The notes under the pieces are model-generated. The model saw nothing but the letters and a program-made list of their open reading frames with translations, did not search any database and was not told the origin of the DNA. The position numbers were made by a program, and so were the translations under genes. This document shows positions 36,242-53,096 of a DNA stretch of 64,000 bases, one piece after another; the stretch's first letter is position 1, and each line of letters begins with the position of its first letter. This DNA is from an uncultured Lachnospiraceae bacterium (GTDB lineage: Bacteria; Bacillota; Clostridia; Lachnospirales; Lachnospiraceae), in the NCBI GenBank assembly GCA_902793845.1, contig CADBFE010000001.1, forward strand, positions 19,221 to 83,220, given 5' to 3'.

Positions 36242-37342
36242 ATGAGAGCAATACAAACAGGAAGTATATTTAAAATATTCGATGATAGTCTTAAGACTTA
36301 TGATCAGTTGCCAGTAAAGACATACATGGTTGGATATACCCAGCAGGAAGGATGTTTTCTGATTCAACATCCTAATATTGTTGTGACTGAGAAAACATAT
36401 GGAATTCATAATAGTAAAGTGAAGAAGGTTATGAATTCGTTTGAAAACTATGAAAGAAGCCTTGGCATAATTCTTAGTGGTGATAAGGGTATTGGCAAAA
36501 CGATTTTTGCTAAGTTAATTTGTCAAAATGCATTATCGAAAGGTTTACCTGTGATTATCGTGGACTCATGCTTGCCTGGGGTAGCAAGATTTATTGAATC
36601 AATTGAGCAAGAGTGTGTGATTATGTTTGATGAATTTGATAAGATATTCAGAAGTGGAAGAAATCGGGATGATGATGATGATCAAGCGGCATTGCTTAGT
36701 TTGTTTGATGGAACAGCGGGTGGAAAGAAACTTTTCATTGTGACTTGTAATGAGTTATATGGTCTCAATGAGTATATTGTGAACCGTCCCGGACGTTTCC
36801 ATTACCATTTCAGATTTGAATATCCTTCTACTCAAGATATCAAAGAATATCTATCAGATAAACTAAATTCACAATATTCAGACGAAATTGAAAAAGTGGT
36901 AGGGTTTGCGCAGAAGATTAATCTTAACTATGACTGTTTGAGAGCTATTGCCTTTGAATTGAATCAGGGGATTCCGTTTAAGGAGGCTGTGGCAGACTTA
37001 AACATCCTTAATATTAACAGGGAAGAGTACAAGGTAATTCTTTATTATGAGGATGGGACTATACTTCATAATTATCATTTTTCAACAAATTTATTTGATA
37101 ACAATGGTTGCTGGACTTGGGTAGATTTATACGACGACAAAGGTGAGGAGATTGTCAGCGTGAGATATGACAAAGAACTTGCAACTTATGACATTGCTCA
37201 TAATACAACAGTGATTCAGGGAGATACATTATTGCTTGAGTATGAGTGTGATGCCGACGATGAAAAATTGTATAAGAATAAAAAGCCATTACACATCACT
37301 TTTGCTAAATGCAATGTTCGAAATTTACATTACATTGTTTAA
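36242..37342 (+). CDS. AAA+ ATPase
   Basis: Walker A GDKGIGKT, Walker B VIMFDE, NRPGRF arginine-finger region; AAAGGA RBS. Confidence 0.88.
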   Translation: MRAIQTGSIFKIFDDSLKTYDQLPVKTYMVGYTQQEGCFLIQHPNIVVTEKTYGIHNSKVKKVMNSFENYERSLGIILSGDKGIGKTIFAKLICQNALSKGLPVIIVDSCLPGVARFIESIEQECVIMFDEFDKIFRSGRNRDDDDDQAALLSLFDGTAGGKKLFIVTCNELYGLNEYIVNRPGRFHYHFRFEYPSTQDIKEYLSDKLNSQYSDEIEKVVGFAQKINLNYDCLRAIAFELNQGIPFKEAVADLNILNINREEYKVILYYEDGTILHNYHFSTNLFDNNGCWTWVDLYDDKGEEIVSVRYDKELATYDIAHNTTVIQGDTLLLEYECDADDEKLYKNKKPLHITFAKCNVRNLHYIV

Positions 37343-37355
37343 GGAGGATAACATT

Positions 37356-39098: not shown

Positions 39099-39125
39099 AT
39101 GTTTATAGAGATTAGGTAGAAATAT

Positions 39126-40232
39126 ATGATTGAACGAAGAGTAAATACTTCTCAGATGCCGGTTTCGAAGTTTGAGAATAAATTCGTAAATGTATATACA
39201 AAATTGATAGAATCAGGAACTTCATTTAAGCTGTTTCCGTCGGTAATGTTATGGGGGCCTCCTGGAGTTGGTAAATCTCAGGCTGTAAAGCATATTGCAG
39301 AAAAAGTTTCCGATAAAACAGGTAAAAAAGTTTCGGTTACTGACGTCAGACTTTTGCTTTTTAATCCCATAGATCTTCGTGGTATTCCGACTGCAAATGC
39401 AGATAAGACATTGGCGGTATGGCTCAAACCCAAAATCTTTCAAATGGATGATAGTAAAGATGTAGTTAATATTCTGTTCTTGGATGAAATATCTGCAGCA
39501 CCTCCATCAGTACAGGCGGCTGCGTATCAAATTGTTTTAGACAGAACAATAGGAGAACATGAACTTCCTGATAATTGTATTGTTATTGCGGCGGGAAATC
39601 GTGTTACAGATAAATCTGTAGCGTACGCAATGCCTAAAGCGTTGGCAAATCGTCTTATGCACATAGAAGTTGTGGGAGAACCACTTGGATGGCGGGAGTG
39701 GGCAACTTCCCATAATATACACCCGTATGTAATAGGTTTTATAAATTACAGTCCGGCAATGCTTATGGGATTTGATCCGTCATTGGAAGACCTAGCATTT
39801 CCGACACCGAGATCATGGGAAATGGTTAGTAATATTTTGAATTATATTTCAGATAATCTTGATGAAGTTATGCCACTTATTTCAGGATGTATTGGAAGTG
39901 ATACGGCTTATAGTCTGAAATCGTGGACTGAAATGTATGAGGTGATTCCGGAAATAACTGAGATACTTGATGGAAAACACAAGGATATTCCAACACGTCC
40001 GGAAATAGCTTTGGCTTTGATGTCTCAGATGGGAATGTATTTACGTGAACATCATAGTGTTGAAGAGGTAAAGAATGCCCTTGATTTTGTATTCAATATG
40101 CCTATTGAATACAGAAGTCAGGCCTTAGTGGATTTTCTTGCGGTAAAAGAAATCCATGGATTATTAAGAAATGATGATCGTTATTGCAACTGGTTTCTAC
40201 GTTCAGGAAGATATTGGGAAGACTATGCATGA
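39126..40232 (+). CDS. MoxR-like AAA+ ATPase (DUF2201-partner type)
   Basis: Walker A GPPGVGKS, DLRGIP, Walker B LFLDE, AAGNR, ALANR, PTPRSWE. Confidence 0.88.
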   Translation: MIERRVNTSQMPVSKFENKFVNVYTKLIESGTSFKLFPSVMLWGPPGVGKSQAVKHIAEKVSDKTGKKVSVTDVRLLLFNPIDLRGIPTANADKTLAVWLKPKIFQMDDSKDVVNILFLDEISAAPPSVQAAAYQIVLDRTIGEHELPDNCIVIAAGNRVTDKSVAYAMPKALANRLMHIEVVGEPLGWREWATSHNIHPYVIGFINYSPAMLMGFDPSLEDLAFPTPRSWEMVSNILNYISDNLDEVMPLISGCIGSDTAYSLKSWTEMYEVIPEITEILDGKHKDIPTRPEIALALMSQMGMYLREHHSVEEVKNALDFVFNMPIEYRSQALVDFLAVKEIHGLLRNDDRYCNWFLRSGRYWEDYA

Positions 40233-41602
40233 ATATGACCAAACTTCGTAGACAAAGATTGAAGTATAAAATTCAGGATGCAAGAGCAGAGTTATTGATG
40301 GAAAAGCCTTTCTATGGACTGCTACTGATGTATTTAAAATTTGTAGCTGTTGATAATATAAGGAATATTTCAACAAACGGAAGATGCGTGTATTTTTGCC
40401 CTGCATTTATAGAAAAACTTACATTATACGAATTGCAGTTTGTTCTATGTCATCAGGTTATGCATATATTAAACGGTGATATATGGCGAGATGTTGCTTT
40501 TGCTGGTGATGAGTATCACAGGGCATTTGACATAGTGATAAATCGTGAATTGCTAAAACGAGGATGGAATGTTTCAGGACTAACGCATCTTGGGAAATTA
40601 CAGTATACTATTCCACAAAGTCGGTACAAACTGGATGAACTGAATGCGTATGAGATATACCAATGTTTTCCGTTCAAATTGAAAATGCTTGATGATAGGA
40701 CTCGAAAGCGTTATATGGCAGATTCAGATTTTTGGTGGGATTATAAGGATGAAAATGGATTTGAAGGTATAACAATTATTGATTTACCGAAGATAACTAA
40801 ATGGGCCGATAAACCGATTGGCTTAAATGGTGAGACTATTGAAGATGTGGATGGAAATGCAGGAAATGGTGGTACGAGTTCGGACATTTCAGGAAGCGCA
40901 AACATAGAAATACTAAAAAGTGAACTGCTTGCTGATTTTTGGGAAAATAGAGCACAGCTTGCTATGCAGGCTTCGCGAGGTCAAAATAGAGGTAAGGGTG
41001 TAGGTGATATGCCAGATTCGGCCAAACGAGCAATGGACAAACGTCATAAAAGCAAAACTGACTGGAGAGATCTTCTCAACACTTTTGTACAGGAAGAGAT
41101 TACGGATTATTCTTTTGCTCCACCGGATAGACGATTTATGGATTCGGATTTCTTTTTACCAGATTTCAATGAAAAAGAGGCAAATATTAAAGATATTCTT
41201 TTTATGGCTGATACATCGGCTTCTATTGATCGGCATGAACTCGGAGTTGTTTATTCGGAAATTAAAAGTGCAATAGAACAATTTAATGGCAAGATTAGCG
41301 GAAAATTGGGATTCTTTGATGCGGCAGTGACTCCACCGATTTTATTTGAGAGCGTAAAAGATTTGGAGAAAATTATACCCTATGGTGGTGGAGGTACAGA
41401 TTTCAGAGCAATCTTCAAGTATATAAATAAAGAAATGCAAGATTGTTTACCGTCTGCGATAGTTATTTTTACAGATGGAGACGGACCATATCCGGAAGAG
41501 CAGGATATTCCGAATGTTCCGGTTCTTTGGTTAATTAATAATGATGAAGAAAAGCCACCATTTGGTAAAGTAGCAAGAATATTACCTGATCACTATAATT
41601 GA
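40229..41602 (+). CDS. DUF2201-like metallopeptidase-fold + vWA domain protein
   Basis: ATG overlaps the upstream TGA (ATGA); N-terminal PFYG..STNG..HQVMH; C-terminal MIDAS DTSAS, GGGTDF, FTDG. Confidence 0.85.
   Translation: MNMTKLRRQRLKYKIQDARAELLMEKPFYGLLLMYLKFVAVDNIRNISTNGRCVYFCPAFIEKLTLYELQFVLCHQVMHILNGDIWRDVAFAGDEYHRAFDIVINRELLKRGWNVSGLTHLGKLQYTIPQSRYKLDELNAYEIYQCFPFKLKMLDDRTRKRYMADSDFWWDYKDENGFEGITIIDLPKITKWADKPIGLNGETIEDVDGNAGNGGTSSDISGSANIEILKSELLADFWENRAQLAMQASRGQNRGKGVGDMPDSAKRAMDKRHKSKTDWRDLLNTFVQEEITDYSFAPPDRRFMDSDFFLPDFNEKEANIKDILFMADTSASIDRHELGVVYSEIKSAIEQFNGKISGKLGFFDAAVTPPILFESVKDLEKIIPYGGGGTDFRAIFKYINKEMQDCLPSAIVIFTDGDGPYPEEQDIPNVPVLWLINNDEEKPPFGKVARILPDHYN
41594..41599 (+). 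promoter_or_regulatory. Possible -10 box for the retron ncRNA inside the vWA gene 3' end
   Basis: Perfect TATAAT 18 nt upstream of the first inverted repeat; -35 position weak (TAGCAA). Confidence 0.4.
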
Positions 41603-41616
41603 TTAGGGTGATATAT

Positions 41617-41785
41617 ACACGGAACTCTAGTGTAGCCGGCTAGTGCTGGCATGTTCAGCGATTCGCTGTTCGTAAAATAATCTTTGTTACATTTAATGGC
41701 ATCTGCTTCAACGTAGCAGAAGGCACGCTGACACGTGCTTATCTACGCCTTCGCAGAAGCGATATATAACTGTTTTGTTCCGTGT
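41617..41785 (+). ncRNA. Retron msr-msd ncRNA
   Basis: Terminal inverted repeats ACACGGAAC (41617-25) / GTTCCGTGT (41777-85); two short msr-type hairpins (41635-50, 41656-68); long imperfect msd-type hairpin 41696-41763; ends just before the RT RBS (AAGGAGG 41796-802). Confidence 0.82.
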
Positions 41786-41810
41786 GAGACCATGAAAGGA
41801 GGGTGGAAAA

Positions 41811-42725
41811 ATGAATATGATTGTTTATAAAGAATTATCCACCCTTTGTCATGATCTTGGGTTTTCGGCAAGAGCATTATACTTTGCAAGCAATACAATT
41901 GAGAATCATTATCATGATGTTGAAATTCCAAAAGGGAATGGCGAAACAAGATTACTGCATGTACCAGATAATTTCATGAAGGCGATTCAGAGGAGTATTG
42001 CAAAAAACATTCTGTTTTATTATGAAATATCTCCTCATGCTGTTGCATACAGAGTATTAGGCAGTACAAAACTAAATGCTTTTCCGCATGTTGGTAAAGA
42101 TATGGTGATGAAATGTGATATACGAAAGTTTTTTGATCATATTACTTTTCAGATGCTTAGAAATAAGGTGTTTCCCTCTTCAGTTTATTCGGAGAGTAAT
42201 AGTATTCTTCTTTCAGTTCTTTGTACGTATAGAGGATCAATTCCTCAAGGTGCACCGACATCTCCAGTGATTTCAAATATTATATTAAGAGATTATGATT
42301 TACGTGTTGGAAAATGGTGTTCTGAAAGAAATATTTCATATACAAGATACTGTGACGATATGACTTTTTCAGGAAATTTTGATGCAACAAAGGTTAAAGC
42401 GTTTATAAAAGACGAACTGAAAAAAGAAGGATTCTTTTTAAATGGAAAGAAGACGGTTGTCCTTCATCAGGGACAAAGAATGGAGGTTACCGGTATTGTT
42501 GTAAATGAAAAGATTTCAATTCCAAGAAATTACAAGCGAAGACTTCGACAGGAATTATACTATTGTAAGAAAATTGGATGGAAGAATCATCTTAAAAAAA
42601 CAGGAATTCATGAAAATGTTGATTCGTATAGAAAGAAAATCTTGGGAAGGATTAATTATGTACTCTTAATTGAACCGAATAATAAAGAAATGAGTGAACT
42701 CAAAGATTGGGTATTAAACAATTAA
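41811..42725 (+). CDS. Retron-type reverse transcriptase (304 aa)
   Basis: IPKGNG, region X NAFPH (NAxxH), DIRKFFDHI, PQGAPTSPVISN, YTRYCDDMTFSG, region Y VTGIVVN; no maturase or endonuclease extension. Confidence 0.92.
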   Translation: MNMIVYKELSTLCHDLGFSARALYFASNTIENHYHDVEIPKGNGETRLLHVPDNFMKAIQRSIAKNILFYYEISPHAVAYRVLGSTKLNAFPHVGKDMVMKCDIRKFFDHITFQMLRNKVFPSSVYSESNSILLSVLCTYRGSIPQGAPTSPVISNIILRDYDLRVGKWCSERNISYTRYCDDMTFSGNFDATKVKAFIKDELKKEGFFLNGKKTVVLHQGQRMEVTGIVVNEKISIPRNYKRRLRQELYYCKKIGWKNHLKKTGIHENVDSYRKKILGRINYVLLIEPNNKEMSELKDWVLNN

Positions 42726-42940
42726 TTATTTCAGAAACATTTAGTATTTAACGAAAACTTTGGCGATGTTAGTCCACAAAATTTTAGACGTTGGCTTTTA
42801 TAATTTGATTATTTAAATAAAGTATTTTTAATTACTGTCACGATTGCTGTTAGAAGTATATAATAATATTTTAGATAGATATTTAATGTATGATAACGTC
42901 AATAGGGACCAATATATAGATTGGGCATAAATGAAAAAAT

Positions 42941-43777
42941 ATGGATACTATTTATTGTAGAAAATGTGGAAAACAAATATTATCGGACAGCGATTATTGT
43001 ATGTATTGTGGCGAAAAAATAATTTTTGTCACAGAAATAAAATCTAGTGATAATAATTTAGTAAATCAAAATATTAAAGAACGTATTATTAAAAAGAATA
43101 AATTTGATAAAAATAATTTTCTTTATAAAACACTTTCTTTTATAAAGAAAAATATAACTCATTTGCTATTTGGCGGATTGGTTATATTTGCTTTTATTGT
43201 ATTAATAACAACAGTAAGTATTAATATGGCTCAAACTGAGAAAAAAAGCGATAATACTCAAAATAATAATAATCAAACAAATAATACTCAAGCCAACAAA
43301 AATGATTCTCTGGAAGACGAAGAAAAAGAATTAATACCATATAATGCATATCATGGGGAAATAATAATTAAGCCTTCCTATTATAGAACATGTCCTTTTG
43401 TAGTTCATACAGATGAAGGAGAAAATTATTATATTTATCTTAAATATATAGGTGCTCCTTCTTATTCCGTTGAGAAAAGAGAAAAAAATCCAAAGGCATC
43501 AAATAATGAAAATAATATTTCTGTTTATGCAGTTGGAGGGAAAACAATTAATATTGATGTACCTATTGGAAAATATGAAATGTATTATTGTACGGGAGAT
43601 GTTTTTTATGGAAACGAAAAACGTTTTGGTGATGAAACAAGAGCCTATGTAGCAGATGATATTTTAGTATTTTATGTTGACGATAATTATTACCAAGGGA
43701 ATGAAATCACATTATATTCAGTTGTAAATGGAAATATGGACACATCAGTAATTAATATAGATGATTTTCCTAAATAA
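42941..43777 (+). CDS. N-terminal zinc-ribbon, single-TM membrane protein
   Basis: CRKC-x10-CMYC at residues 6-23, TM helix near residues 75-95, Asn/Gln linker, C-terminal beta-rich domain. Confidence 0.78.
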   Translation: MDTIYCRKCGKQILSDSDYCMYCGEKIIFVTEIKSSDNNLVNQNIKERIIKKNKFDKNNFLYKTLSFIKKNITHLLFGGLVIFAFIVLITTVSINMAQTEKKSDNTQNNNNQTNNTQANKNDSLEDEEKELIPYNAYHGEIIIKPSYYRTCPFVVHTDEGENYYIYLKYIGAPSYSVEKREKNPKASNNENNISVYAVGGKTINIDVPIGKYEMYYCTGDVFYGNEKRFGDETRAYVADDILVFYVDDNYYQGNEITLYSVVNGNMDTSVINIDDFPK

Positions 43778-43789
43778 TAAGGAGAGAAT

Positions 43790-45262
43790 ATGAGTCTTTA
43801 TAGTTTGTTTTATAATATTTTAACTGCATTATTTTGTTTATTGTCATTGAAATTTGATTTAATGATTATAAAGAGTATTTCGGTTTTTTTAGGTATAACT
43901 GCACTGTTTGCACCGATATTTGGAGCTTTATATAGATTCAAAAATAATATTAATGAAAAAAACAGTTCATCATATGATGCATTTTCAATCGCTATTGCAT
44001 TTTTCACTTTTGAATATAGTTTGAATTTGATATTAGGAACACGGGCGTTGTCGGTTGGTCTATTGTTATACGTTATTTCTGTTATAGTTTTTTTAGAAAT
44101 AAATCGAAAGGAAATAATTATAGAACAAAATTCAACCTCTAAAAAAAGAGAAAATTATAAAAGAAAAATTTCTATTTTATCGATACTATGTATGATTGTT
44201 GACATAGTATTATATTTAGTTTTTATTGTTCTATATTTTAAGAAGGTAAATGAAGCGGTTAAATATTTTTGTGTGATTTTGGCTTTTGCATCACCTTTGT
44301 ATCCTATTTTTGTTAAAAATTATAGAATTAATAATCATATACAATCAAAAATAAATAATGCATTAGAAAATATATCTGCTTGTTTTGTTTTTGTTGTTTA
44401 CTATAATTATCTTACTTATTTATTGGGGATTAAAATTTATGCTGCTTTTATTTCTGTAGCGGCAACATTGGTTTCACTTTTTTTTCATAAAAAAATATAC
44501 CCTTATTATGATGATTATAAAAAATATGAACCCTTAGTAAATGAAAATAAAAAAACATTTGAAGAAAAAGCGTTAAATATTTCAAGAGAAAATGAAATAA
44601 GCGCATTAATAAAAGAACACATAGAAGACAAAGAATATACTCCGGAAAGCTTTTTTTATGCCAGGGAAGAAGCTTTATTTGGTTTGTATAAAGACCATAT
44701 TATAAGTAAGTCTGAATGTTTATACATGGCCAAATTAGAAATAAAAACAGTTATATTAGATTTGCTTAAAACAATAATAATTACTGAAAGTGATTTTTAT
44801 AATGAATCATTTTCTGTTGATCATGCGGCTGAATATGCGTATAAGAATTGTATTACAGATATTAATAATATTGATGAATTAGAAAGTAAAATAAATCAAA
44901 AATATTCAGGATATAATTCTAGAGTAAGAGAAAAGGCAAAGATAGCATTTCCTCAGATTTATGTTATTTATAAAACATATATAAATAATATTATGGATAA
45001 ATTATCTGATATAGAAGATTCCTATAAGAAAATAGAAAAAGTTGATAAATCTTTACAATCGCAAAAACTTCCAATGAAAAAAGAAAAAATAAGTAAAGAT
45101 AATAAAGTCGAAGAACAGTTGTACGAGGATTCACTAAATAACAATTATACGAAAAATAAAACAACTAATCATGAAAAATTATATTGCAGAAAATGTGGAA
45201 CCGAACTTGTTATAGATAGTGAATTTTGTTATAAGTGTGGTACAAAAGTAATTCGCATATAA
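43790..45262 (+). CDS. Polytopic membrane protein with C-terminal zinc ribbon
   Basis: About 8 hydrophobic segments in the N-terminal half, soluble C-terminal half, CRKC-x10-CYKC at the C-terminus; very AT-rich. Confidence 0.75.
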   Translation: MSLYSLFYNILTALFCLLSLKFDLMIIKSISVFLGITALFAPIFGALYRFKNNINEKNSSSYDAFSIAIAFFTFEYSLNLILGTRALSVGLLLYVISVIVFLEINRKEIIIEQNSTSKKRENYKRKISILSILCMIVDIVLYLVFIVLYFKKVNEAVKYFCVILAFASPLYPIFVKNYRINNHIQSKINNALENISACFVFVVYYNYLTYLLGIKIYAAFISVAATLVSLFFHKKIYPYYDDYKKYEPLVNENKKTFEEKALNISRENEISALIKEHIEDKEYTPESFFYAREEALFGLYKDHIISKSECLYMAKLEIKTVILDLLKTIIITESDFYNESFSVDHAAEYAYKNCITDINNIDELESKINQKYSGYNSRVREKAKIAFPQIYVIYKTYINNIMDKLSDIEDSYKKIEKVDKSLQSQKLPMKKEKISKDNKVEEQLYEDSLNNNYTKNKTTNHEKLYCRKCGTELVIDSEFCYKCGTKVIRI

Positions 45263-45379
45263 AGTATCGTATTTGATATTATTTATCTATTTTGCTGTTT
45301 CGGCGATTTAGTTATGCTATAAGTACATTGCTCAATTGTATGTTGAGTTTATTGAGCTTGATTTATGTATAAAAAATCT

Positions 45380-45430
45380 TATATCCCTAATGATCCTACA
45401 TTGACTAAAACATTATGATGAAAAAATGAT
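45380..45430 (+). pseudogene. Short relic of an rpn gene
   Basis: TATATCCCTAATGATCC (17 bp) identical to 48194-48210 and CATTATGATGAAA identical to 48224-48236, with a 1-nt spacing shift. Confidence 0.7.
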
Positions 45431-45593
45431 TATACGTTTAACTAGTTCAGAAAGAAGGCAATCAACAGGCTAAAATAAAATTTTATTATGTGTCATACAA
45501 CTGTATTTCAGATCGTAACAATAGCAACAGGAAGACAAGCGTGTATATTGAGGGCGGTCTATTATATTTTATGAAAAATGGAGCATAGATATT

Positions 45594-45914
45594 GTGATAA
45601 AAAGATCAGAAAAGAGTCTTGAACTATTTAAAATCTTAAAGGAAAGAGGCTATTCTGAAGCCTTTTGCTATGAGGTGACTTATAATCTTAATACAGATTG
45701 GACTGCGCAGCGTATGATAGGATATTTGAGTCACTATAAAAAACTTCCAATGGAAGAGGTCGCAGATGAAGTTTTGGCAATATTAAGTCATAGAAATCAG
45801 ATTATGCAGAAAAAACATTTGGAAGATATTAATGCCCGTTGGAATCAATATCTTAATGAAGGATTCGATGAAGACATAGACGCTGAAAGGAATAGTGATA
45901 ATGTCATTTTTTAG
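45594..45914 (+). CDS. Hypothetical 106-aa protein, copy A
   Basis: GTG start after GGAG; about 94% nucleotide identity to 49021-49341. Confidence 0.8.
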   Translation: MIKRSEKSLELFKILKERGYSEAFCYEVTYNLNTDWTAQRMIGYLSHYKKLPMEEVADEVLAILSHRNQIMQKKHLEDINARWNQYLNEGFDEDIDAERNSDNVIF

Positions 45915-46302
45915 AAACAAAATGACAAGAGTTGTTTACTTAATTTTATCTGCTATTGTTCTGGGCGTAGAGATATTAATCGGTCTGTATGCACATGGAT
46001 GGATCAGGAGCTATCTTGGAGATGTTCTTGTTGTTATCCTGCTTTATTCCATTTTTAGAACAATTTTTCCTAAATGGCCGGGGAAATGGTATGTACTTCC
46101 TACGGTTATTCTCATATTTGCATTTGGCGTGGAATTTCTACAACTCTGGGGCTTCTGCGACCGATTCGGAATAACGAATCGATTGCTTCGAATTATTATC
46201 GGAACTGGATTTTCGATTGAAGATCTGGTGAGTTATTCGATTGGAATTGTGCCGTGTTATGTTGTGGAATATCTGACAATGAGGAGAAAATTCAGACATT
46301 AA
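45895..46302 (+). CDS. DUF2809-like small membrane protein
   Basis: HGWIRSYLGDVLVVILLY, VEFLQL, IIIGTGFSIEDL (family recalled); true start may be 45901 or 45922. Confidence 0.75.
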   Translation: MIMSFFRNKMTRVVYLILSAIVLGVEILIGLYAHGWIRSYLGDVLVVILLYSIFRTIFPKWPGKWYVLPTVILIFAFGVEFLQLWGFCDRFGITNRLLRIIIGTGFSIEDLVSYSIGIVPCYVVEYLTMRRKFRH

Positions 46303-46316
46303 TTATAAAAGATTAG

Positions 46317-46460
46317 GGTTTATATGGCGATGAAATTATGTCTTTGACGGCAATCATGCGAAAGATAAAAGGCTATAAAAACATAGCGGGAACATCATAT
46401 TTTACATATAAGGGAGAACCTCTTGCTGATATTGCAGCAAGAACACAATGGAAACAATAA
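46317..46460 (+). pseudogene. C-terminal fragment resembling the tail of T5orf172/GIY-YIG-type proteins
   Basis: Open frame GLYGDEIMSLTAIMRKIKGYKNIAGTSYFTYKGEPLADIA...; the SLT...AG.xYFxYKGExLxDI pattern is recalled from such tails; no 5' part. Confidence 0.4.
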
Positions 46461-46509
46461 GTCGGGTTTTAGTTGTATTTGGTGATAAATTAATTTTTTA
46501 AGAGTATAT

Positions 46510-47058
46510 ATGAAATTTCAGATTATTCCTTTTGGGAAGGGCAAAAATCGAATACTGTTTATCCATTTAAAACGCCCAATGAAAAATGGTTTTGCAGGTA
46601 TGGTCACAAGTAACATCTTTAAGGATGAACGTATCGCAATAATGGTTGATAATGAAAATACTGTAACTGATTATGATTTTGCCGGTCTGACTTTGACAAA
46701 AACGGGTTTCAGTTCGATCAATATGGATAAGGAAGTCTTTTACGGCATCAAACAGGGAAATCCTATGGCAAGAATGATTCTCTTTCATGAGTTGGGACAT
46801 TATTATTATGGAGATCTTCAAAATAAGGATTTCAAACAGGAGGAATATCAAAAGCGCAGAGAAAATGCTATAAAGAATGGGGGCGTTGTTGATGAAGAAG
46901 TTAGGGCAGATGCATTTGCCTTAAATTATTTAGATTTAGAATATGTGACGAAAGCGCTTGAGATATTGAAAGAAAAAATTCAAGAGAAATACGGTCCTGA
47001 TAAGGATGCAGAATTGATTATAGAAGAAATCAATATTAGAATGCAGAAGATATCATAA
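46510..47058 (+). CDS. ImmA/IrrE-like zinc metallopeptidase
   Basis: LFHELGH (HExxH) followed by EVRADAFA (ExxAD/N). Confidence 0.72.
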   Translation: MKFQIIPFGKGKNRILFIHLKRPMKNGFAGMVTSNIFKDERIAIMVDNENTVTDYDFAGLTLTKTGFSSINMDKEVFYGIKQGNPMARMILFHELGHYYYGDLQNKDFKQEEYQKRRENAIKNGGVVDEEVRADAFALNYLDLEYVTKALEILKEKIQEKYGPDKDAELIIEEINIRMQKIS

Positions 47059-47060
47059 AT

Positions 47061-47098
47061 AAAACCCGGATGGTGGCGAAAACTACTATCTGGTTTTT
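47061..47098 (+). terminator. Intrinsic terminator after the metallopeptidase gene
   Basis: AAAACC(C)GGATGGTGG / CTACTATCTGGTTTT stem with G-U pairs and a T run. Confidence 0.6.
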
Positions 47099-47210
47099 AG
47101 TGATTGAACAAACAAAAAAAATAAAATTCAATATTAATATGGCTACATTTTATTGTTTTTGGAGGATAATTTTTCAGCATATGCAATTATTCTTTTTTAA
47201 TATATATCCG

Positions 47211-47239
47211 TTGACTTTGGGGGCAAAAACGAGTACATT
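47211..47239 (+). promoter_or_regulatory. Promoter directly upstream of the 35-nt repeat array
   Basis: TTGACT, 17 bp, TACATT; the predicted start site falls at about 47246-47247, the first repeat base. Confidence 0.6.
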
Positions 47240-47246
47240 TTTAGTT

Positions 47247-47350
47247 GCAGAGAACCCTGCTGTGAGTGGGAACAATAAAAAGCAGAGAACCCTGCTGTAA
47301 GTGGGAACGATAAAAAGCGGAGAATCCTACCGATAAGTGGAAACGATACA
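47247..47350 (+). ncRNA. Type III TA antitoxin-like (ToxI/AbiQ-like) array of three ~35-nt pseudoknot repeats
   Basis: Units at 47247, 47282 and 47317; A-rich tails; unit 3 has two compensatory pairs (CAG/CTG to CGG/CCG; CCC/GGG to TCC/GGA) in interleaved stems; flanked by a promoter and a terminator. Confidence 0.72.
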
Positions 47351-47377
47351 GAGCTGCATTATTGCAGCTCTTTTTTC
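47350..47377 (+). terminator. Intrinsic terminator closing the repeat array
   Basis: AGAGCTGC-ATTATT-GCAGCTCT followed by a T run. Confidence 0.85.
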
Positions 47378-47412
47378 ATAATTAAGAATATAATTGAGAA
47401 AATGAATTTATC

Positions 47413-47441
47413 TTGACACGATTGCGTTAAAATAATATATT
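47413..47441 (+). promoter_or_regulatory. Near-consensus sigma70 promoter upstream of rpn
   Basis: TTGACA, 17 bp, TATATT. Confidence 0.65.
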
Positions 47442-47635
47442 CTTTATGAGAATATGAGATTTTTCATTTTGATTGTTTTTCTTTAAGGTAATTGTCTGTT
47501 TATCAACTTCTCTTTTTAAATTTGTAAAAAGCCAATTTATCGTGGCTAAGCACCTGAAAACAAGTTATAATTAAAGAGATATGAGGAATGCTCATTTAAA
47601 TGAGTTTTATTCTTATGTCTCGGAAAGGACAAATT

Positions 47636-48484
47636 ATGCATCAGAAGGATTTAGCTGAAAAGCTTCTGTTTGATTATAATGACGTCTTTGCCGATGTCAT
47701 TAATGGTTATGTATTTAAAGGTAACCAGACAATAAATGAAAACCAATTAAAAGATAGCAAGATACGGACTCAGTTTAAAGCTGATGACAGCAAGCTTCAT
47801 GAACAGGAACGTGATATACTCAAGGAGTGGTGTGATTCAGACATAAGAATCGCAATTTGTGGGATTGAAAACCAGACACTTCCCGATGAGTATATGCCAC
47901 TCAGGGTAATGAGTTATGACGGGGCTTCATATAAAAGCCAGCTAATTGATAAAAATCAAAAGCCTGTTCCCGTTATGACGGTCATTCTGTATTTTGGAAC
48001 AGAAAAAAGATGGGAGTATCCGCGTAATCTAAAAAATATTATAAATATACCACCTGAAATTGATGATTTCGTAAACGACTACAGGATTAATGTCCTTGAA
48101 GTTGCATGGATGGAAGAAAGCGAACTTGAATGTTTCAGTGGTGATTTCAAGATAGTAGCAAATTTTTTGATTAATAGGAGAAAGAATCCAGGGTATATCC
48201 CTAATGATCCGACAGTAATCAAGCATTATGATGAAATGATGAAATTGCTGACAATTGTAACAAACGATAAGAAATATGAGAAAATCATTAGTATACCGAC
48301 AGATAATAAGGAGGCGAGATCTATGTGTACTGTAGCGCAGAATTTAATTAATATTGGAAGAAATGAAGGAATAAATGAAGGTAAAAGTCAGTCTATTGAC
48401 CGTCTAACTGAGTACTTTATGAATCAGAATCCAGAAATAACGGCTGAAGAGGCCAGGGATATGGCGACTAAAATTCTTAAATAA
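47636..48484 (+). CDS. rpn: Rpn family PD-(D/E)xK nuclease (RpnL)
   Basis: NDVFADVIN, QERDILK, GIENQT, MPLRVMSYDG..Y, PVMTVILYFG, NDYRINVL, C-terminal GxxEG repeats; ATG 47636 follows GAAAGGA. Confidence 0.85.
   Translation: MHQKDLAEKLLFDYNDVFADVINGYVFKGNQTINENQLKDSKIRTQFKADDSKLHEQERDILKEWCDSDIRIAICGIENQTLPDEYMPLRVMSYDGASYKSQLIDKNQKPVPVMTVILYFGTEKRWEYPRNLKNIINIPPEIDDFVNDYRINVLEVAWMEESELECFSGDFKIVANFLINRRKNPGYIPNDPTVIKHYDEMMKLLTIVTNDKKYEKIISIPTDNKEARSMCTVAQNLINIGRNEGINEGKSQSIDRLTEYFMNQNPEITAEEARDMATKILK
48323..48484 (+). CDS. Predicted intragenic RpnS antitoxin (53 aa, in frame within rpn)
   Basis: Perfect AAGGAGG (48308-14) 8 nt before the in-frame ATG of MCTVAQNLINIGRNEG. Confidence 0.72.
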   Translation: MCTVAQNLINIGRNEGINEGKSQSIDRLTEYFMNQNPEITAEEARDMATKILK

Positions 48485-48498
48485 TATAAATAACAATT

Positions 48499-48536
48499 AA
48501 AATGACCGCCGGGACAAAGAGTCAGGCGGTTATTTT
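48499..48536 (+). terminator. Terminator after rpn
   Basis: AAAATGACCGCC / GGCGGTTATTTT. Confidence 0.7.
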
Positions 48537-48545
48537 AAATAAACA

Positions 48546-48995
48546 TTGGTGATAAAAATGATTAGTAAACTATTATCAAATTCCCCATTCTTATTCATGG
48601 GAGGTTTCGTTTTCTTATTTTCAAGATTCTTTAATATGATGCTTCAGGACCCTAAGGATTTAAAGCATACTACAGGTATTGTTACAAAAATATGGGAGCC
48701 AACCGATTCTTCTACCTATAGGGCAGAAGTAAAGTTCTTGTCGGAAACAGGCCATACAGTGTATGCCAAAATGGTTGGTCTTAGAAACGTTGAGAATGCT
48801 AATGAAGGCGATGAAATAGAGATAGATTATCACTTCGTGAAGGATGGTTCATGCTATGCCACATCAAATGATCCAAGATATGTATCAGGAATGGATATTG
48901 AAAGTGCAAAAAAATATAAAACAGGATGCCTGTGGATTTCCGGATTAACGGTTGTTTTATACATAGTGCTTACCGTTATTGAATTTATAAAGTGA
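48546..48995 (+). CDS. Two-TM membrane protein (DUF3592-like topology)
   Basis: N- and C-terminal TM helices around a TTGIVTKI...beta-rich domain. Confidence 0.6.
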   Translation: MVIKMISKLLSNSPFLFMGGFVFLFSRFFNMMLQDPKDLKHTTGIVTKIWEPTDSSTYRAEVKFLSETGHTVYAKMVGLRNVENANEGDEIEIDYHFVKDGSCYATSNDPRYVSGMDIESAKKYKTGCLWISGLTVVLYIVLTVIEFIK

Positions 48996-49020
48996 GAAAA
49001 AACGAAAGAATATACAGATT

Positions 49021-49341
49021 GTGAAAAATAGATCAGAAAAGAGTCTTGAACTATTTAAAATCTTAAAGGAGAGAGGTTATCCTGAAGCCTTCTGTTATGA
49101 AGTGACCTATAATCTTAATACAGATTGGACTGCACAGCGTATGATAGGATATTTGAGTCACTATAAAAAACTTCCAATGGAAGAAGTTGCAGATGAAGTG
49201 CTGGCTATATTAAGTCATAGAAATCAGATTATACAGAAAAAAAATTTGGAAGATATTAATGCCCGCTGGAATCAATATCTTAATGAAGGATTCGATGAAG
49301 ACATTGACGCTGAAAGGAATAGTGATAATGTCATTTTTTAG
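49021..49341 (+). CDS. Hypothetical 106-aa protein, copy B
   Basis: Near-identical paralog of 45594-45914. Confidence 0.8.
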   Translation: MKNRSEKSLELFKILKERGYPEAFCYEVTYNLNTDWTAQRMIGYLSHYKKLPMEEVADEVLAILSHRNQIIQKKNLEDINARWNQYLNEGFDEDIDAERNSDNVIF

Positions 49342-49402
49342 CAAGCTGTTTCAGAAAAATAAAACAGCATCTTTGCTTGAATAGATACGAGGGTAGTAAT
49401 AA

Positions 49403-49870
49403 ATGAAATTACGAAATTTAAGAGAAGATGAAACTGAATTACTAAAAGACTTTTTGTATGAGGCAATCTTCGTTCCGGAGGGAATTATGCCGCCTGATAG
49501 AGAGATAATAGAGCAACCTGAACTGAAGATTTACTATGAAGATTTTGGAACAGGCAGGGCGGATCACTGTATAGTGGCTGATGATAATGGGAAGGTAGTC
49601 GGAGCGGTATGGACCAGAATTATGGACGATTATGGACATGTGGATGACGAGACTCCATCCTTTGCTATTTCGCTCTATAAAGAATATCGCGGACAAGGTC
49701 TGGGAACTCAGATGATGAATCAAATGCTGATTCTTTTGAAAGATAAGGGATTTAATAAAGCATCTCTTGCCGTGCAGAAAGCGAATTATGCTGTCCGGAT
49801 GTACGAGAAGGCAGGATTTAAAACTGTGAATGAAAATGAAGAAGAGTTTATAATGGTGCGTGAACTATAA
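49403..49870 (+). CDS. GNAT N-acetyltransferase
   Basis: ISLYKEYRGQGLGT, SLAVQKANYAVRMYEKAGF. Confidence 0.88.
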   Translation: MKLRNLREDETELLKDFLYEAIFVPEGIMPPDREIIEQPELKIYYEDFGTGRADHCIVADDNGKVVGAVWTRIMDDYGHVDDETPSFAISLYKEYRGQGLGTQMMNQMLILLKDKGFNKASLAVQKANYAVRMYEKAGFKTVNENEEEFIMVREL

Positions 49871-49985
49871 GTGTTGTTATTACTGATTTTGAGACAATAC
49901 AACGTTGAACGCTTTGTTTCAGGATAATTGAGGAGTGAATGTGAAGATAGGAATGCCGTCAGAGGATAATAAGGAGGAAAAATCT

Positions 49986-50186
49986 ATGTGTACAGTAGCA
50001 CAGAATTTAATAAATATTGGCAGAAATGAAGGCCGGATTGAAGGTAGAAACGAAGGCTGGATTGAAGGAAGAAACGAAGAAAAGAAGAATGCAATTGAGC
50101 ACCTCGCCGAATTTTTTGCAAGGAAAAATCCTGAGTTGACGCCTGAACAGGCCAGGGAGATGGCAACTACTGCTCTCAAATATTAA
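49986..50186 (+). CDS. Solo RpnS-like small protein (66 aa) from a 5'-truncated rpn
   Basis: AAGGAGG (49971-77) 8 nt before ATG; MCTVAQNLINIGRNEG identical to the rpn C-terminus, with more EG repeats; rpn homology extends only about 10 codons upstream. Confidence 0.75.
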   Translation: MCTVAQNLINIGRNEGRIEGRNEGWIEGRNEEKKNAIEHLAEFFARKNPELTPEQAREMATTALKY

Positions 50187-50193
50187 CAAAGAC

Positions 50194-50239
50194 AACTAAA
50201 ATAACTGCCGGAACATAGAGCCTGGCGGTTATTTTAGTT
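50194..50239. terminator. Bidirectional terminator
   Basis: AACTAAAATAACTGCC / GGCGGTTATTTTAGTT between convergent genes; homologous to 48499-48536. Confidence 0.75.
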
Positions 50240-50241
50240 TT

Positions 50242-50811
50242 CTAATGCAAATAATCTGTCACTTTATCCATAACACCCAGAATGTTCCGAATATCATCCA
50301 GTGGAGATTCCGTTTCAAGTGAATGATTGGCTTTTTCTACTTTGTATAATTCCAGACCAAGTTCATTGCATTTAGCCTCTGCTACATCCGTACTGAACCA
50401 GGGATCAGCTGTTCCGTGAAAGACAATCCCCACATTTTGTCTTAGTCTGTCAAATGTCTGGGGAACGGGTGTAAATACAATATGTCTCGCCCCCACATTC
50501 AGTTCTCCGTCAAAATATGCAGCGATTGCAGTACCGATGCTTTTGCCTATAAAGAGGATATCATCATACTCATCAAATTGAATCCCTTTGACCTGTTCCT
50601 TGATCTGAGATACAGCAATCTCAAAAGCTTCTTTCATACGAGCCTTATCATTCATTATCTCGCGGGCCTTGTAGGGAAAGTCATATTTTAATTCTACAAT
50701 TTCATATCCCATGCTTCTTGCGATTCTCTTTGAATAATAAAGCAGAGGTTTATCTGTATGATAGCCCATACCGGGAAATACAACTGCAATTTTCTTTTCA
50801 CTCATATCCAT
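50242..50811 (-). CDS. Alpha/beta hydrolase
   Basis: FPGMGY, GKSIGT nucleophile elbow, HGTADPW, ANHSLE. Confidence 0.82.
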   Translation of the reverse strand: MDMSEKKIAVVFPGMGYHTDKPLLYYSKRIARSMGYEIVELKYDFPYKAREIMNDKARMKEAFEIAVSQIKEQVKGIQFDEYDDILFIGKSIGTAIAAYFDGELNVGARHIVFTPVPQTFDRLRQNVGIVFHGTADPWFSTDVAEAKCNELGLELYKVEKANHSLETESPLDDIRNILGVMDKVTDYLH

Positions 50812-50862
50812 ATTCTCTCCATATTTGCAGATATTGAAATATATTACATATTTCTGTCTGAT

Positions 50863-51858
50863 TCAAGATAGGGCAGGTAAGACTTTGCTCTCTATAAATT
50901 CCACACGATCAAAAATCCTTACCTTAAAAGTGCCTGTTATACCGACAGACACATTTTGCCCTTTGTTTATATAAATAATATTTCCACTGTCACCAATTGC
51001 AGCATAGACATCTTTATCATCGTATGGCTGGTACCATAAGTAGCCATAGTTCATGAAGCCAAACTTCTCGCCAAGCTTTATGTGAGATGTCAGCATGTCT
51101 TTTATGTATTCTCCGGAGATGATTCTCCTGCCACCGTAAATTCCGCCATCCAAAACAAGCTTTCCTACAGTAGCCATATCTCTTGCAGACATGCATAATC
51201 CCCAGCCGGCGGTAACACTGCCCTGGGGGTCGGAGTACCACTCATATTTTCTGGGATTCTTATTCATGAAGAAATCAAACTGATCTTCTTTTGAAGAGTC
51301 TCCATGTATAACCCGCCCGGGGAGTCCCAATGGCTCAAACAAATTTTCGTTGGCAAAATCGATGCATTTTTTCCCCGATGCTCTCTCTATTATTCCCGCA
51401 AGTATCTGAATACCAAGAGTTGCATATCTGAATTCGCCGGTTATCCCGTTCCTGCCTCCAAGGTAATCCAGGATTGCCAGAGTCCAGTTCTGCGAAGTGC
51501 ATACCTTTTTCCAAGGCTCTGACTTACCTTTATACGGAGCAGTCATTGTGAGCAGATGCCTGATTGTAACATCATATATAGTTTTCTCACCCCGCTTTAC
51601 AGTATAATCCGGAAAGAAATCCATCACCTTTTGATTCAGATCCCTGATGTATCCTTTATCCAGTGCAATTCCTGCAAGCAGTCCCATAATACCTTTGGTC
51701 ACGGAATTGACATTCATTGCATCTAAAGTGCTGAAACCATGCCAGCAATCTTCAAGCACCACCTCATTATCTTTAATGGCATAGATCTGGCAAATATTAC
51801 TCTCGTTGCCTGTATTTTCAGAAATATACCTGTGTAATTGTTCTTTATTCATAATCAA
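50863..51858 (-). CDS. Serine hydrolase, beta-lactamase/AmpC-like family
   Basis: SVTK (SxxK), TIRHLLTMT, LFEPLG, YGYLW. Confidence 0.85.
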   Translation of the reverse strand: MIMNKEQLHRYISENTGNESNICQIYAIKDNEVVLEDCWHGFSTLDAMNVNSVTKGIMGLLAGIALDKGYIRDLNQKVMDFFPDYTVKRGEKTIYDVTIRHLLTMTAPYKGKSEPWKKVCTSQNWTLAILDYLGGRNGITGEFRYATLGIQILAGIIERASGKKCIDFANENLFEPLGLPGRVIHGDSSKEDQFDFFMNKNPRKYEWYSDPQGSVTAGWGLCMSARDMATVGKLVLDGGIYGGRRIISGEYIKDMLTSHIKLGEKFGFMNYGYLWYQPYDDKDVYAAIGDSGNIIYINKGQNVSVGITGTFKVRIFDRVEFIESKVLPALS

Positions 51859-52181
51859 AAACCTCCTCTTAGAAAAAGATTCGGACGTCCTAAGAAAAGG
51901 CTAATTGAATTAAAAATCTTTTTCAAGAATAATCTTAAATTTTTTAGTATCATATTCCTATAGTATATGTTTTTTATGAATTCATTTATCATGTGGGATA
52001 ATATTAACTGTCGAAAAGGTATAGAATCTGAAGATCAGGTAATCAGAATCACAATAACTGCGGGTATTGAACCCAAGAATAAAAACATCAAGTTTAACAA
52101 ATGGATTGTGGCAGCTGATGAAAAGCTCTATATCGGAAAAACAATGGCAAAAACAGGGCAATAAAATAACCGCCTGAAAAA

Positions 52182-53013: not shown

Positions 53014-53096
53014 TGCCGGCTGCGGGACTTGAACCCGCACGTGGTCACCCACAACAGATTTTGAGTCTGCATCGTCTGCCATTCCGACAAGCCGGC
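53014..53096 (-). tRNA. tRNA-Leu (anticodon CAA)
   Basis: Minus strand: GCCGGCT acceptor, CAGA-CTCAAAA-TCTG anticodon arm, long variable arm, GCGGG-TTCAAGT-CCCGC T arm. Confidence 0.95.

What the first reader, a model, noticed from the sequence alone, without database searches (positions are those of the whole stretch)
47211..47377. Orphan type III toxin-antitoxin-like RNA: three pseudoknot repeats with internal covariation but no toxin
Seen: promoter (TTGACT-17-TACATT), then units GCAGAGAACCCTGCTGTGAGTGGGAACAATAAAAA, GCAGAGAACCCTGCTGTAAGTGGGAACGATAAAAA and GCGGAGAATCCTACCGATAAGTGGAAACGATACA, then a strong terminator. Four of the five substitutions in the aligned core of unit 3 versus unit 2 form two compensatory pairs (3/15 A-U to G-C; 9/24 C-G to U-A) in interleaved stems, i.e. 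an H-type pseudoknot. Established: ToxI and AbiQ antitoxins are 34-36-nt pseudoknot repeats with A-rich cleavage sites, followed by a terminator and then the toxin. Here only ATG-AAT-TTA-TCT-TGA and a new promoter for rpn follow. Inference: a stand-alone antitoxin that neutralises a ToxN/AbiQ RNase in trans (an anti-addiction decoy, like phage pseudo-ToxI), a remnant after toxin loss, or an RNA partner for Rpn.
Basis: partly seen in the sequence, partly recalled or inferred. Interest (0 to 1): 0.85.

Follow-up and report, generated by a model that had tools for sequence, protein, structure and literature searches.

The report
ToxI antitoxin RNA without its toxin
This is a real ToxI-type RNA antitoxin array (three 35-nt pseudoknot repeats with their own promoter and terminator) whose ToxN toxin gene has been deleted, most likely a recent evolutionary leftover, although toxin-less arrays of this family are common enough elsewhere to deserve a functional test.

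Summary
Window 47246-47349 carries three tandem 35-nt units. A sigma-70-like promoter precedes them (47211-47239) and a strong terminator follows (47350-47377).

The array belongs to a large family. A two-unit pattern found at least 119 loci in other genomes, mostly Clostridia. In 63 of 101 arrays that could be assessed, a full-length ToxN/AbiQ-family ORF follows the terminator. The partner toxins are closest to Bacillus thuringiensis ToxN (PDB 4ATO).

The window has no ToxN remnant in any frame of 45001-52000. The genome's only toxN lies on another contig and has its own unrelated 41-nt repeats. No other locus of the family has an Rpn gene, so an Rpn partnership is rejected.

Toxin loss is recurrent: 14 further arrays have degraded toxins and 24 have none. 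One syntenic pair shows a clean toxin deletion. A sample of the window's own bacterial family shows a decay series.

Best reading: a recent relic of a toxIN module, probably still transcribed. A retained trans-acting role is not excluded. Orphan arrays keep promoters and terminators, and other genomes hold tandem antitoxin-only cassettes.

The parts
47066..47100 (+). Terminator of the upstream gene (46510-47058, weak Peptidase_M78/IrrE-like match). It separates that gene from the RNA unit.
47211..47239 (+). Promoter of the antitoxin RNA: TTGACT-17-TACATT. The -35 context ATTGACTTT and these hexamers recur in relatives with an intact toxin, for example L037.
47246..47280 (+). Repeat unit 1 (TGCAGAGAACCCTGCTGTGAGTGGGAACAATAAAA)
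   Evidence: model R1 E 6.4e-12
47281..47315 (+). Repeat unit 2 (AGCAGAGAACCCTGCTGTAAGTGGGAACGATAAAA)
   Evidence: model R1 E 5.4e-14
47316..47349 (+). Repeat unit 3, the variant with G-C in stem 1 and UCC...GGA in the pseudoknot stem. The same variant third unit occurs in relatives with an intact toxin (L053, L038, L070).
   Evidence: model R1 E 8.3e-10
47350..47377 (+). Intrinsic terminator (9-bp stem, 5 G-C pairs, loop 4, T6). In intact loci it sits between the antitoxin and the toxin.
47378..47635 (+). The place where the toxin gene should be. It holds only a 5-codon ORF (47402-47416) and a promoter-like site for rpn (47413-47441). No ToxN-like coding remnant in any frame.
47636..48484 (+). 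Neighbouring Rpn/YhgA-like (Transposase_31) gene. It is not part of the module.

Best explanation
The array is the antitoxin half of a toxIN type III toxin-antitoxin module of the ToxN/AbiQ family, in the branch nearest Bacillus thuringiensis ToxIN. Each 35-nt unit should fold into a small H-type pseudoknot. Stem 1 pairs unit positions 3-6 with 14-17. Stem 2 pairs the loop CCC (UCC in unit 3) with the downstream GGG (GGA in unit 3). A-rich linkers (AUAAAAA) join the units. In intact systems ToxN cuts such linkers and each ToxN binds one unit.

Here the toxin gene has been removed by deletion, and the promoter-repeats-terminator unit is left intact. The RNA is probably still made, as an unprocessed transcript of about 130-140 nt. 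It has no cognate toxin in this genome. It is therefore most likely a recent, functionless leftover in a variable defence-gene region.

Shown: homology to toxin-linked arrays, covariation, absence of the toxin, and recurrent toxin loss in relatives. Inferred: transcription, the fold details, the lack of a present function, and that the loss is recent.
For: 1. Homology to functional systems. A two-unit pattern found at least 119 loci. Of 114 arrays, 63 are followed by a single open ToxN-family ORF covering at least 150 of 174 profile positions and starting about 40-120 nt after the last unit.
2. Toxin family. The relatives' remnant ORFs hit Pfam ToxN_toxin (E 3e-14 and 4e-13). A toxin from the nearest intact locus (L053, Oribacterium sp. 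NK2B42) matches ToxN of PDB 4ATO (E 2e-17), 2XD0 and 7D8O, and AbiQ 4GLK.
3. Array integrity. The window array matches L053's three units almost base for base, including the variant third unit. Model scores of 37-48 bits are in the range of arrays in other loci.
4. Covariation supports both stems.
5. No toxin. The toxin profile finds nothing in six frames of 45001-52000 (best E 2.4). The genome holds one ToxN only, on contig 7, behind its own 41-nt x 2.8 repeats. Model R1 does not recognise those repeats.
6. Loss is the common fate. 14 arrays have degraded toxins and 24 have none. L069 differs from L136 by a clean deletion of the toxin ORF at the same syntenic site.
7. Decay series in the window's family. 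In 150 genera sampled, the real loci are G000, G073 and G132 (no toxin), G050, G043, G005 and G007 (truncated toxin, some with decayed units), and G141 (intact).
Against: - The promoter, all three units and the terminator are intact. A neutral relic should eventually decay, so the loss must be recent or the RNA is kept.
- Toxin-less arrays elsewhere have promoters and terminators as good as toxin-linked ones. Promoters: 83% against 85%, with 5% in controls. Terminators: 83% against 77%, with 7% in controls.
- Tandem antitoxin-only cassettes with conserved flanks and diversified units exist in other genomes.
- The assembly is 94.9% complete in 146 contigs. A cognate toxin on an unassembled replicon cannot be excluded.
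Confidence: 0.6

Rival explanations
1. Retained trans-acting antitoxin. The array is kept by selection because its RNA neutralises a ToxN made elsewhere. That could be a cognate toxIN arriving on a mobile element (anti-addiction or immunity), or the resident contig-7 ToxN as a back-up or competing substrate.
For: - The transcription unit is intact.
- Orphan arrays in 22 other species-level genomes have no ToxN anywhere in the fetched locus yet keep good promoters and terminators.
- Antitoxin-only cassette islands exist in L048, L056 and L096. In L048 the promoter plus leader is 84-95% identical between cassettes 0, 1 and 3, while the arrays are only 54-69% identical.
- The resident ToxN is 42-51% identical to toxins that pair with window-type arrays. 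Its own linkers also contain AUAAAA.
- Butyrivibrio sp. INlla16 repeats the combination of a window-type orphan array and a 41-nt-unit toxIN.
Against: - The resident ToxN has its own complete array, which is unrelated in sequence.
- ToxI-ToxN pairs are reported to be selective, with no cross-talk between the Pectobacterium and Bacillus systems (review PMC5086642).
- The array is not conserved in the same-genus genome G005. That genome has a separate, decayed copy at a non-syntenic site.
- The pattern search required two good units, so decayed orphans were not sampled. The good promoters may therefore reflect young age only.
- The one orphan lineage that could be roughly placed in time (L069) lost its toxin after splitting from its close relative L136.
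Confidence: 0.28
2. The cognate toxin still exists but lies elsewhere, on an unassembled contig or plasmid. This would be a split toxIN system rather than an orphan.
For: The genome is a 146-contig draft, 94.9% complete.
Against: - Searches of the whole assembly with Pfam ToxN and with the L053 toxin find only the contig-7 gene, which has its own array.
- In all 63 intact loci the toxin follows the array directly.
- No split arrangement was seen. ToxN genes found elsewhere in orphan-bearing genomes each had their own array.
Confidence: 0.05
3. The RNA is a partner or regulator of the downstream Rpn nuclease: a new RNA antitoxin for Rpn, or a leader controlling rpn.
For: The two are adjacent (about 260 nt apart) on the same strand, in a region with other defence-type genes.
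Against: - tblastn with the window Rpn finds no homologue in any of the other ~119 loci carrying this RNA family.
- A strong terminator ends the RNA, and rpn has its own 11-of-12 promoter-like site.
- The family is linked to ToxN instead.
Confidence: 0.03
4. It is something else: a tandem riboswitch (for example preQ1-I-like small pseudoknots), another known sRNA, or a chance repeat.
For: The units are small H-type pseudoknots with A-rich tails, which superficially resemble small aptamers.
Against: - No Rfam family matches the repeats, even at E up to 10. The listed hits overlap only the terminator or the region downstream of it.
- The terminator is followed by nothing that could be regulated.
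- More than 60 homologous arrays are coupled to ToxN.
- A chance repeat is excluded by TRF score 139 and model E-values down to 5e-14.
Confidence: 0.02

Closest known systems
ToxI of Bacillus thuringiensis ToxIN (pAW63-type plasmids; complex solved as PDB 4ATO)
   Same: - The partner toxins of this RNA family have ToxN of 4ATO as their best solved match (E 2e-17).
- The unit length is the same class: 34 nt x 2.9 for ToxI_Bt (review PMC5086642) against 34-36 nt x 3 here.
- The layout is the same: promoter, repeats, terminator, toxin.
- Read by eye, the ToxI_Bt unit on a B. thuringiensis plasmid (ATTGGTGTAACTCTACCGTAGTGAGTACCAAAAA) aligns with the family consensus AGCGGTGnACCCTACCGTnAAGTGGGAnCTAAAA.
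- The pseudoknot triplet changes in a compensating way: CCC/GGG here, CTC/GAG and CCT/AGG in ToxI_Bt.
   Different: - Model R1 does not score ToxI_Bt (best E 0.89), so the relation is distant.
- The plasmid toxins are under 40% identical to this clade's toxins.
- The window copy has no toxin at all.
ToxI of Pectobacterium atrosepticum ToxIN and antiQ of Lactococcus AbiQ
   Same: Same toxin superfamily (PDB 2XD0 at E 4e-15, AbiQ 4GLK at E 2e-4). Tandem 35-36-nt pseudoknot repeats processed at A-rich sites, with a terminator before the toxin (the cleavage details are from my own knowledge).
   Different: No detectable sequence similarity of the RNA. Repeat number differs (5.5 in ToxI_Pa). Those systems are complete and plasmid-borne.
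Type III loci with repeats and terminator but shortened toxin genes (Blower et al. 2012, PMC3401426)
   Same: [quoted passage not shown] The G050, G043, G005 and G007 relatives here are in that state.
   Different: That search started from toxins, so arrays with no toxin at all could not be found. The window is at the end point of that series.
Phage pseudo-ToxI (phage TE escape mutants)
   Same: A ToxI-like repeat RNA without a linked toxin that can suppress ToxN in trans.
   Different: That RNA is phage-borne and arose under selection to escape abortive infection. This family was not found in 2.9 million viral contigs or in the phage and plasmid collections. The window region shows no phage genes among those scanned.
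Lactococcus plasmid pUCCL632E toxIN (annotated ToxN/AbiQ-family toxin)
   Same: Its 36-nt x 3 array (AGCGGTGAATCTCYACCATCAAGTGAGAATCAAAAA) is recognised by model R1 (E 1e-8 to 8e-8). Its toxin is the best plasmid match to this clade at 39% identity.
   Different: It is plasmid-borne and complete. The pseudoknot triplet is different (TCT/AGA).

Membership tests
ToxI-type antitoxin of ToxIN (type III TA, ToxN/AbiQ family) | Tandem direct repeats of about 34-36 nt, about 2-6 copies | tested here: met
   35 nt x 2.9, TRF score 139. 90 of 122 family arrays have 3 units.
ToxI-type antitoxin of ToxIN (type III TA, ToxN/AbiQ family) | Own promoter upstream and a Rho-independent terminator between the repeats and the toxin | tested here: met
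   Consensus scans only: promoter 47211-47239, terminator 47350-47377. The same elements occur in relatives.
ToxI-type antitoxin of ToxIN (type III TA, ToxN/AbiQ family) | A toxN/abiQ gene immediately downstream | tested here: not met
   No ToxN-like sequence in six frames of 45001-52000. The next gene is Rpn-like. This is why it is filed as an orphan or relic of the family and not as a TA system.
ToxI-type antitoxin of ToxIN (type III TA, ToxN/AbiQ family) | Sequence homology to repeats that are coupled to ToxN elsewhere | tested here: met
   At least 119 loci. 63 have an intact ToxN ORF. Model R1 E-values for the window units are 5e-14 to 8e-10.
ToxI-type antitoxin of ToxIN (type III TA, ToxN/AbiQ family) | Each unit folds as a pseudoknot | tested here: met
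   Covariation: pair 4/16 is GC 58, AU 20; pseudoknot pair 10/27 is CG 79, UA 9 with no exceptions. 0 of 500 shuffles reach the observed covariation score. Pairs 3/17 and 6/14 are only partly supported. The search pattern fixed most CCC/GGG columns. No probing or 3D data.
ToxI-type antitoxin of ToxIN (type III TA, ToxN/AbiQ family) | Processing by ToxN at an A-rich site, and neutralisation of ToxN | not testable with these tools
   AUAAAAA linkers are present. Activity needs an experiment.
Any curated Rfam family (including type III antitoxins, riboswitches and sRNAs, if present in Rfam 15) | Match to the family covariance model | tested here: not met
   No hit over the repeats at gathering score or at E up to 10.
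Rpn-associated RNA (hypothetical) | Co-occurrence of the RNA with rpn across genomes | tested here: not met
   No tblastn hit of the window Rpn in any other locus.
Phage-borne ToxI mimic (pseudo-ToxI-like anti-defence RNA) | Carried by a phage or prophage | tested here: not met
   0 matches in viral contigs. No blastn match in the phage collection. Neighbouring genes are AAA ATPases, a reverse transcriptase, GNATs, Rpn and hydrolases, with no phage structural genes among those scanned.

The most novel reading that the evidence does not exclude
Toxin-less ToxI arrays, this one included, may be expressed 'immunity RNAs' that bacteria keep, and in some genomes multiply and diversify as tandem antitoxin-only cassettes. 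Their role would be to neutralise ToxN toxins encoded elsewhere or arriving on mobile elements. That would be an RNA counterpart of orphan immunity-gene clusters. In this genome the target could be an incoming cognate toxIN or the resident contig-7 ToxN.
Probability: 0.22. Interest if true: 0.8.

Novelty: new member of a known kind. Interest (0 to 1): 0.45.

Why it matters
For this window the result is mainly a clean annotation. An unannotated 170-nt element is identified as a ToxI-family antitoxin RNA whose toxin is gone. This also removes a spurious 76-aa ORF call.

The wider value comes from the comparison set. In a toxin-independent search, about a quarter of assessable arrays of this family have no toxin at all, and another 14% have broken toxins. 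Toxin-centred surveys cannot see this. It gives a concrete picture of how type III TA modules die: toxin first, antitoxin transcription unit last.

The comparison also turned up antitoxin-only cassette islands, which neutral decay does not readily explain. If orphan arrays do protect against ToxN in trans, they would be a new layer in the conflict between defence systems and mobile elements. They would be easy to test by rescue assays in E. coli.

Tried and rejected
- Rfam at gathering and at E up to 10: nothing over the repeats. Only weak hits on the terminator and the region downstream.
- Toxin remnant search. A toxin profile built from 60 downstream ORFs found nothing in six frames of 45001-52000. 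Sensitive blastn of the window flanks against the flanks of subfamily loci gave only chance-level matches of 18-26 nt. The 5-codon ORF and the 'GAGAAAATGAA' before it loosely resemble the RBS and start of relatives' toxins. That is too short to call.
- Rpn link: no Rpn in other loci.
- Resident toxIN as partner. Its 41-nt units are not recognised by model R1. I could not align them by eye in any register.
- Phage and plasmid origin: no pattern match in viral contigs and no blastn match in phages or plasmids.
- Strain variation. An exact-protein look-up of the upstream gene returned one 1552-nt Logan contig identical to the window. The Rpn protein is not on record. No polymorphism data resulted.
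- Synteny. The window flanks match no other locus of the family. The same-genus genome G005 has a decayed copy elsewhere, not syntenic.
- Selection test on orphans. L030 and L069 are 93.9% identical over the RNA unit, against 51.6% in the adjacent spacer and 54% at third codon positions. However, L069's close relative L136 still has the toxin. The conservation can therefore date from the toxin-bearing period, and I do not count it as evidence for a function of orphans.
- Whole-transcript MFE folding: only the terminator is robust (z -2.6). Pseudoknots are not modelled.
- Literature: no paper in the library pairs ToxN with 'orphan antitoxin'. Absence from this library is not proof of novelty.

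Full report
**1. What is in the window**

Positions 47246-47349 hold three head-to-tail units of 35, 35 and 34 nt. Tandem Repeats Finder reports 47247-47348, period 35, 2.9 copies, score 139, the top score of the 64-kb window.

A sigma-70-like promoter (TTGACT-17-TACATT, 47211-47239) ends 7 nt before unit 1. A 9-bp G+C-rich hairpin with a T6 tail (47350-47377) follows unit 3. The upstream gene (46510-47058) has its own terminator at 47066-47093. After the array come a 5-codon ORF (47402-47416), a second promoter-like site (47413-47441, 11 of 12) and a Transposase_31/YhgA-like (Rpn) ORF.

No Rfam family matches the repeats, even at E up to 10.

**2. The array belongs to a large family that is coupled to ToxN**

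BLAST in 200 genomes of the same family found two relatives, G050 and G043. In both, the array and terminator are followed by an ORF that Pfam calls ToxN_toxin but that covers only profile positions about 80-156 of 159. These are toxins with their N-terminal halves deleted.

A degenerate two-unit pattern was then scanned over one genome for each of 185,579 species. By my own rough information-content estimate, about two would be expected by chance. The loci are mostly Lachnospiraceae and other Clostridia, with some Erysipelotrichaceae, Spirochaetia, Synergistales and Anaerolineae.

I built a toxin profile from 60 of the downstream ORFs and classified 114 arrays:

| State of the toxin | Arrays |
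|---|---|
| Single open ToxN-type ORF right after the terminator | 63 |
| Fragmented or truncated toxin | 14 |
| No toxin within 1.3 kb | 24 |
| Not assessable (contig end) | 13 |

For 22 of the 23 toxin-less loci, no ToxN-like sequence exists in any frame of the whole fetched locus, up to 8 kb.

The toxin of the nearest intact locus (L053, Oribacterium sp. NK2B42) matches solved ToxN structures. These are B. thuringiensis 4ATO (E 2e-17), Pectobacterium 2XD0 (4e-15), E. coli 7D8O (8e-14) and, weakly, AbiQ 4GLK.

On a B. thuringiensis plasmid the ToxI_Bt units can be aligned by eye with the family consensus, with compensating changes in the pseudoknot triplet. My covariance model does not score them, however. 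A lactococcal plasmid toxIN array is scored, at E about 1e-8.

**3. Structure**

In an alignment of 88 distinct units (A1) I tested stem 1 (columns 3-6 with 14-17) and a crossing stem 2 (columns 10-12 with 25-27).

- Pair 4/16 is GC 58, AU 20, GU 1, other 9.
- Pair 10/27 is CG 79, UA 9, with no exception.
- The covariation score is 0.148, against 0.098 +/- 0.006 in shuffles (0 of 500 reach it) and at most 0.068 for slid partners.

Two caveats apply. The search pattern fixed the CCC and GGG of at least two units per locus, so the informative variation comes from the unconstrained units. Pairs 3/17 and 6/14 are only partly canonical.

The variant third unit (UCC...GGA with G-C in stem 1) is a conserved feature of the window's subfamily. 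It is also present where the toxin is intact, as in L053, L038 and L070.

**4. The toxin is absent here and there is no cognate toxin in the genome**

The toxin profile finds nothing in six frames of 45001-52000 (best E 2.4).

The assembly has 146 contigs and is 94.9% complete. It holds one ToxN gene, on contig 7 (Pfam E 1.5e-41). That gene sits behind its own 41-nt x 2.8 repeats and terminator. Model R1 does not recognise those repeats. Model R1 finds no further array in the genome.

The resident ToxN is 42-51% identical to toxins that pair with window-type arrays.

**5. The Rpn idea fails**

No homologue of the window's Rpn occurs in any other locus of the family. The array ends in a strong terminator, and rpn has its own promoter-like site.

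**6. How toxins are lost**

L136 (intact) and L069 share flanking genes at 95% amino-acid identity. They differ by a clean deletion that runs from just upstream of the toxin RBS to the last dozen or so codons. Promoter, units and terminator are untouched. L025, L127 and G050 show internal deletions that leave only the ends of the ORF.

I scanned 150 genera of the window's own family with model R1. This scan is unbiased by the two-unit pattern. The real loci form a decay series:

| State | Genomes |
|---|---|
| No toxin | G000, G073, G132 |
| Truncated toxin (units also decayed in G005 and G007) | G050, G043, G005, G007 |
| Intact toxin | G141 |

G005 is in the same genus as the window genome. 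Its copy is not syntenic with the window.

This is what the asymmetry of a toxin-antitoxin pair predicts. Losing the toxin is harmless, while losing the antitoxin first is lethal.

**7. Relic or retained?**

Points in favour of retention:
- The window's promoter, units and terminator are intact. Its hexamers equal those of L037, which has an intact toxin.
- Orphan arrays elsewhere have promoters and terminators as good as toxin-linked ones. Promoters: 83% against 85% with at least 10 of 12 matches, and 5% in controls. Terminators: 83% against 77%, and 7% in controls.
- L048 carries four tandem cassettes of about 270-330 nt. Promoter plus leader is 84-95% identical among cassettes 0, 1 and 3, but their arrays are only 54-69% identical. 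A fifth array follows, and there is no toxin in 8 kb. The same genome has three arrays ahead of its single toxN.

Points against retention:
- Ascertainment required two good units, so old decayed orphans were not sampled.
- The one orphan lineage whose loss I could roughly place in time (L069) lost its toxin after splitting from its close relative L136.
- ToxI-ToxN pairs are reported to be selective.
- The family is absent from the viral, phage and plasmid collections searched.

I therefore favour a recent relic (about 0.6) over a retained trans-acting RNA (about 0.28).

**8. Context**

The neighbours are AAA/MoxR-type ATPases, a DUF2201 vWA-like protein, a reverse transcriptase, zinc-ribbon membrane proteins, DUF2809, an M78-like protein, Rpn, GNATs and hydrolases, up to a tRNA at 53014-53096. 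I verified only the Pfam assignments.

**9. Literature**

Blower et al. 2012 noted type III loci with full repeats and terminators but shortened toxins. The 2016 review gives unit sizes, selectivity and the phage pseudo-ToxI case. I found no paper describing toxin-less type III antitoxin arrays in bacterial chromosomes. That is a limit of the searchable library, not proof of novelty.

**10. Verdict**

The element is a new member of the ToxI antitoxin family in an orphan state, most likely a leftover of toxin deletion. Interest is moderate for this locus and higher for the family-wide pattern of orphan arrays and antitoxin-only islands.

Noticed in passing
L048 (CALZUA010000002.1, uncultured Clostridia MAG), minus strand about 2380 to 1000: Four tandem antitoxin-only cassettes of about 270-330 nt. 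Among cassettes 0, 1 and 3 the promoter plus leader is 84-95% identical, but each cassette carries a different subtype of repeat units (arrays 54-69% identical among those three). A fifth array and another kind of repeat follow. No ToxN-like ORF in any frame of the 8-kb locus. Neutral decay of duplicated relics does not predict conserved flanks with diversified units.
   Followed up: partly
L056 3307-4896; L096 323-748; L146 1790-2529: More multi-array clusters. L056 has three arrays (12 units) and L096 two arrays (7 units), both without any toxin. L146 is in the same genome as L048 and has three arrays in a row ahead of a single toxN.
   Followed up: partly
G000 contig 7, L009 1304-2052: The genome's only complete toxIN: 41-nt x 2.8 repeats (AAATAGGAACTTTATCAGATGGGAGCCTTACCATATAAAAC), a terminator, and a 186-aa ToxN. 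The repeat family is unrelated in sequence to the window array. The same 41-nt type occurs in Butyrivibrio sp. INlla16, which also has a window-type orphan array, and directly downstream of an orphan array in L091.
   Followed up: partly
L011 (G050 contig 129) 229-430, opposite strand to the truncated toxN: A second, convergent type III-like module: promoter, about 46-nt repeats (TCAAATGTTTGT...), terminator, then a 198-aa ORF starting MDNGHFYFINDQYF. It has no significant Pfam match (best E 0.24). It overlaps the 3' end of the truncated ToxN and is possibly a CptN-like or other type III toxin family.
   Followed up: no
L048 about 1000-880 and L056 about 4950-5150: After the last array comes another repeated motif (AAAAATTCACCCCAAGAACTAACTCGGAGCGAAA-like units). 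It may be a further, different antitoxin-like RNA family.
   Followed up: no
window 47070-47300: A 76-aa ORF is called as a gene on an identical Logan contig (L143). It runs through the promoter and repeats and is an artefact of translating the array.
   Followed up: yes
window 36242-45262: Upstream operon: an AAA ATPase, a 620-aa protein with no Pfam match, a MoxR-like AAA, a DUF2201 metallopeptidase-like/vWA protein, then a reverse transcriptase (RVT_1) and two zinc-ribbon membrane proteins. Only the Pfam assignments were checked here.
   Followed up: partly
L168 (G141 contig 19) about 1430-2067: An intact ToxN-family ORF preceded by what looks like a single R1-type unit (GCTGGTGAGTTCCTACCATAAGTGGAAACTGAAAAAAG) plus a terminator. 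This is fewer repeats than the 1.8-2.5 reported as the minimum for antiQ and ToxI.
   Followed up: no
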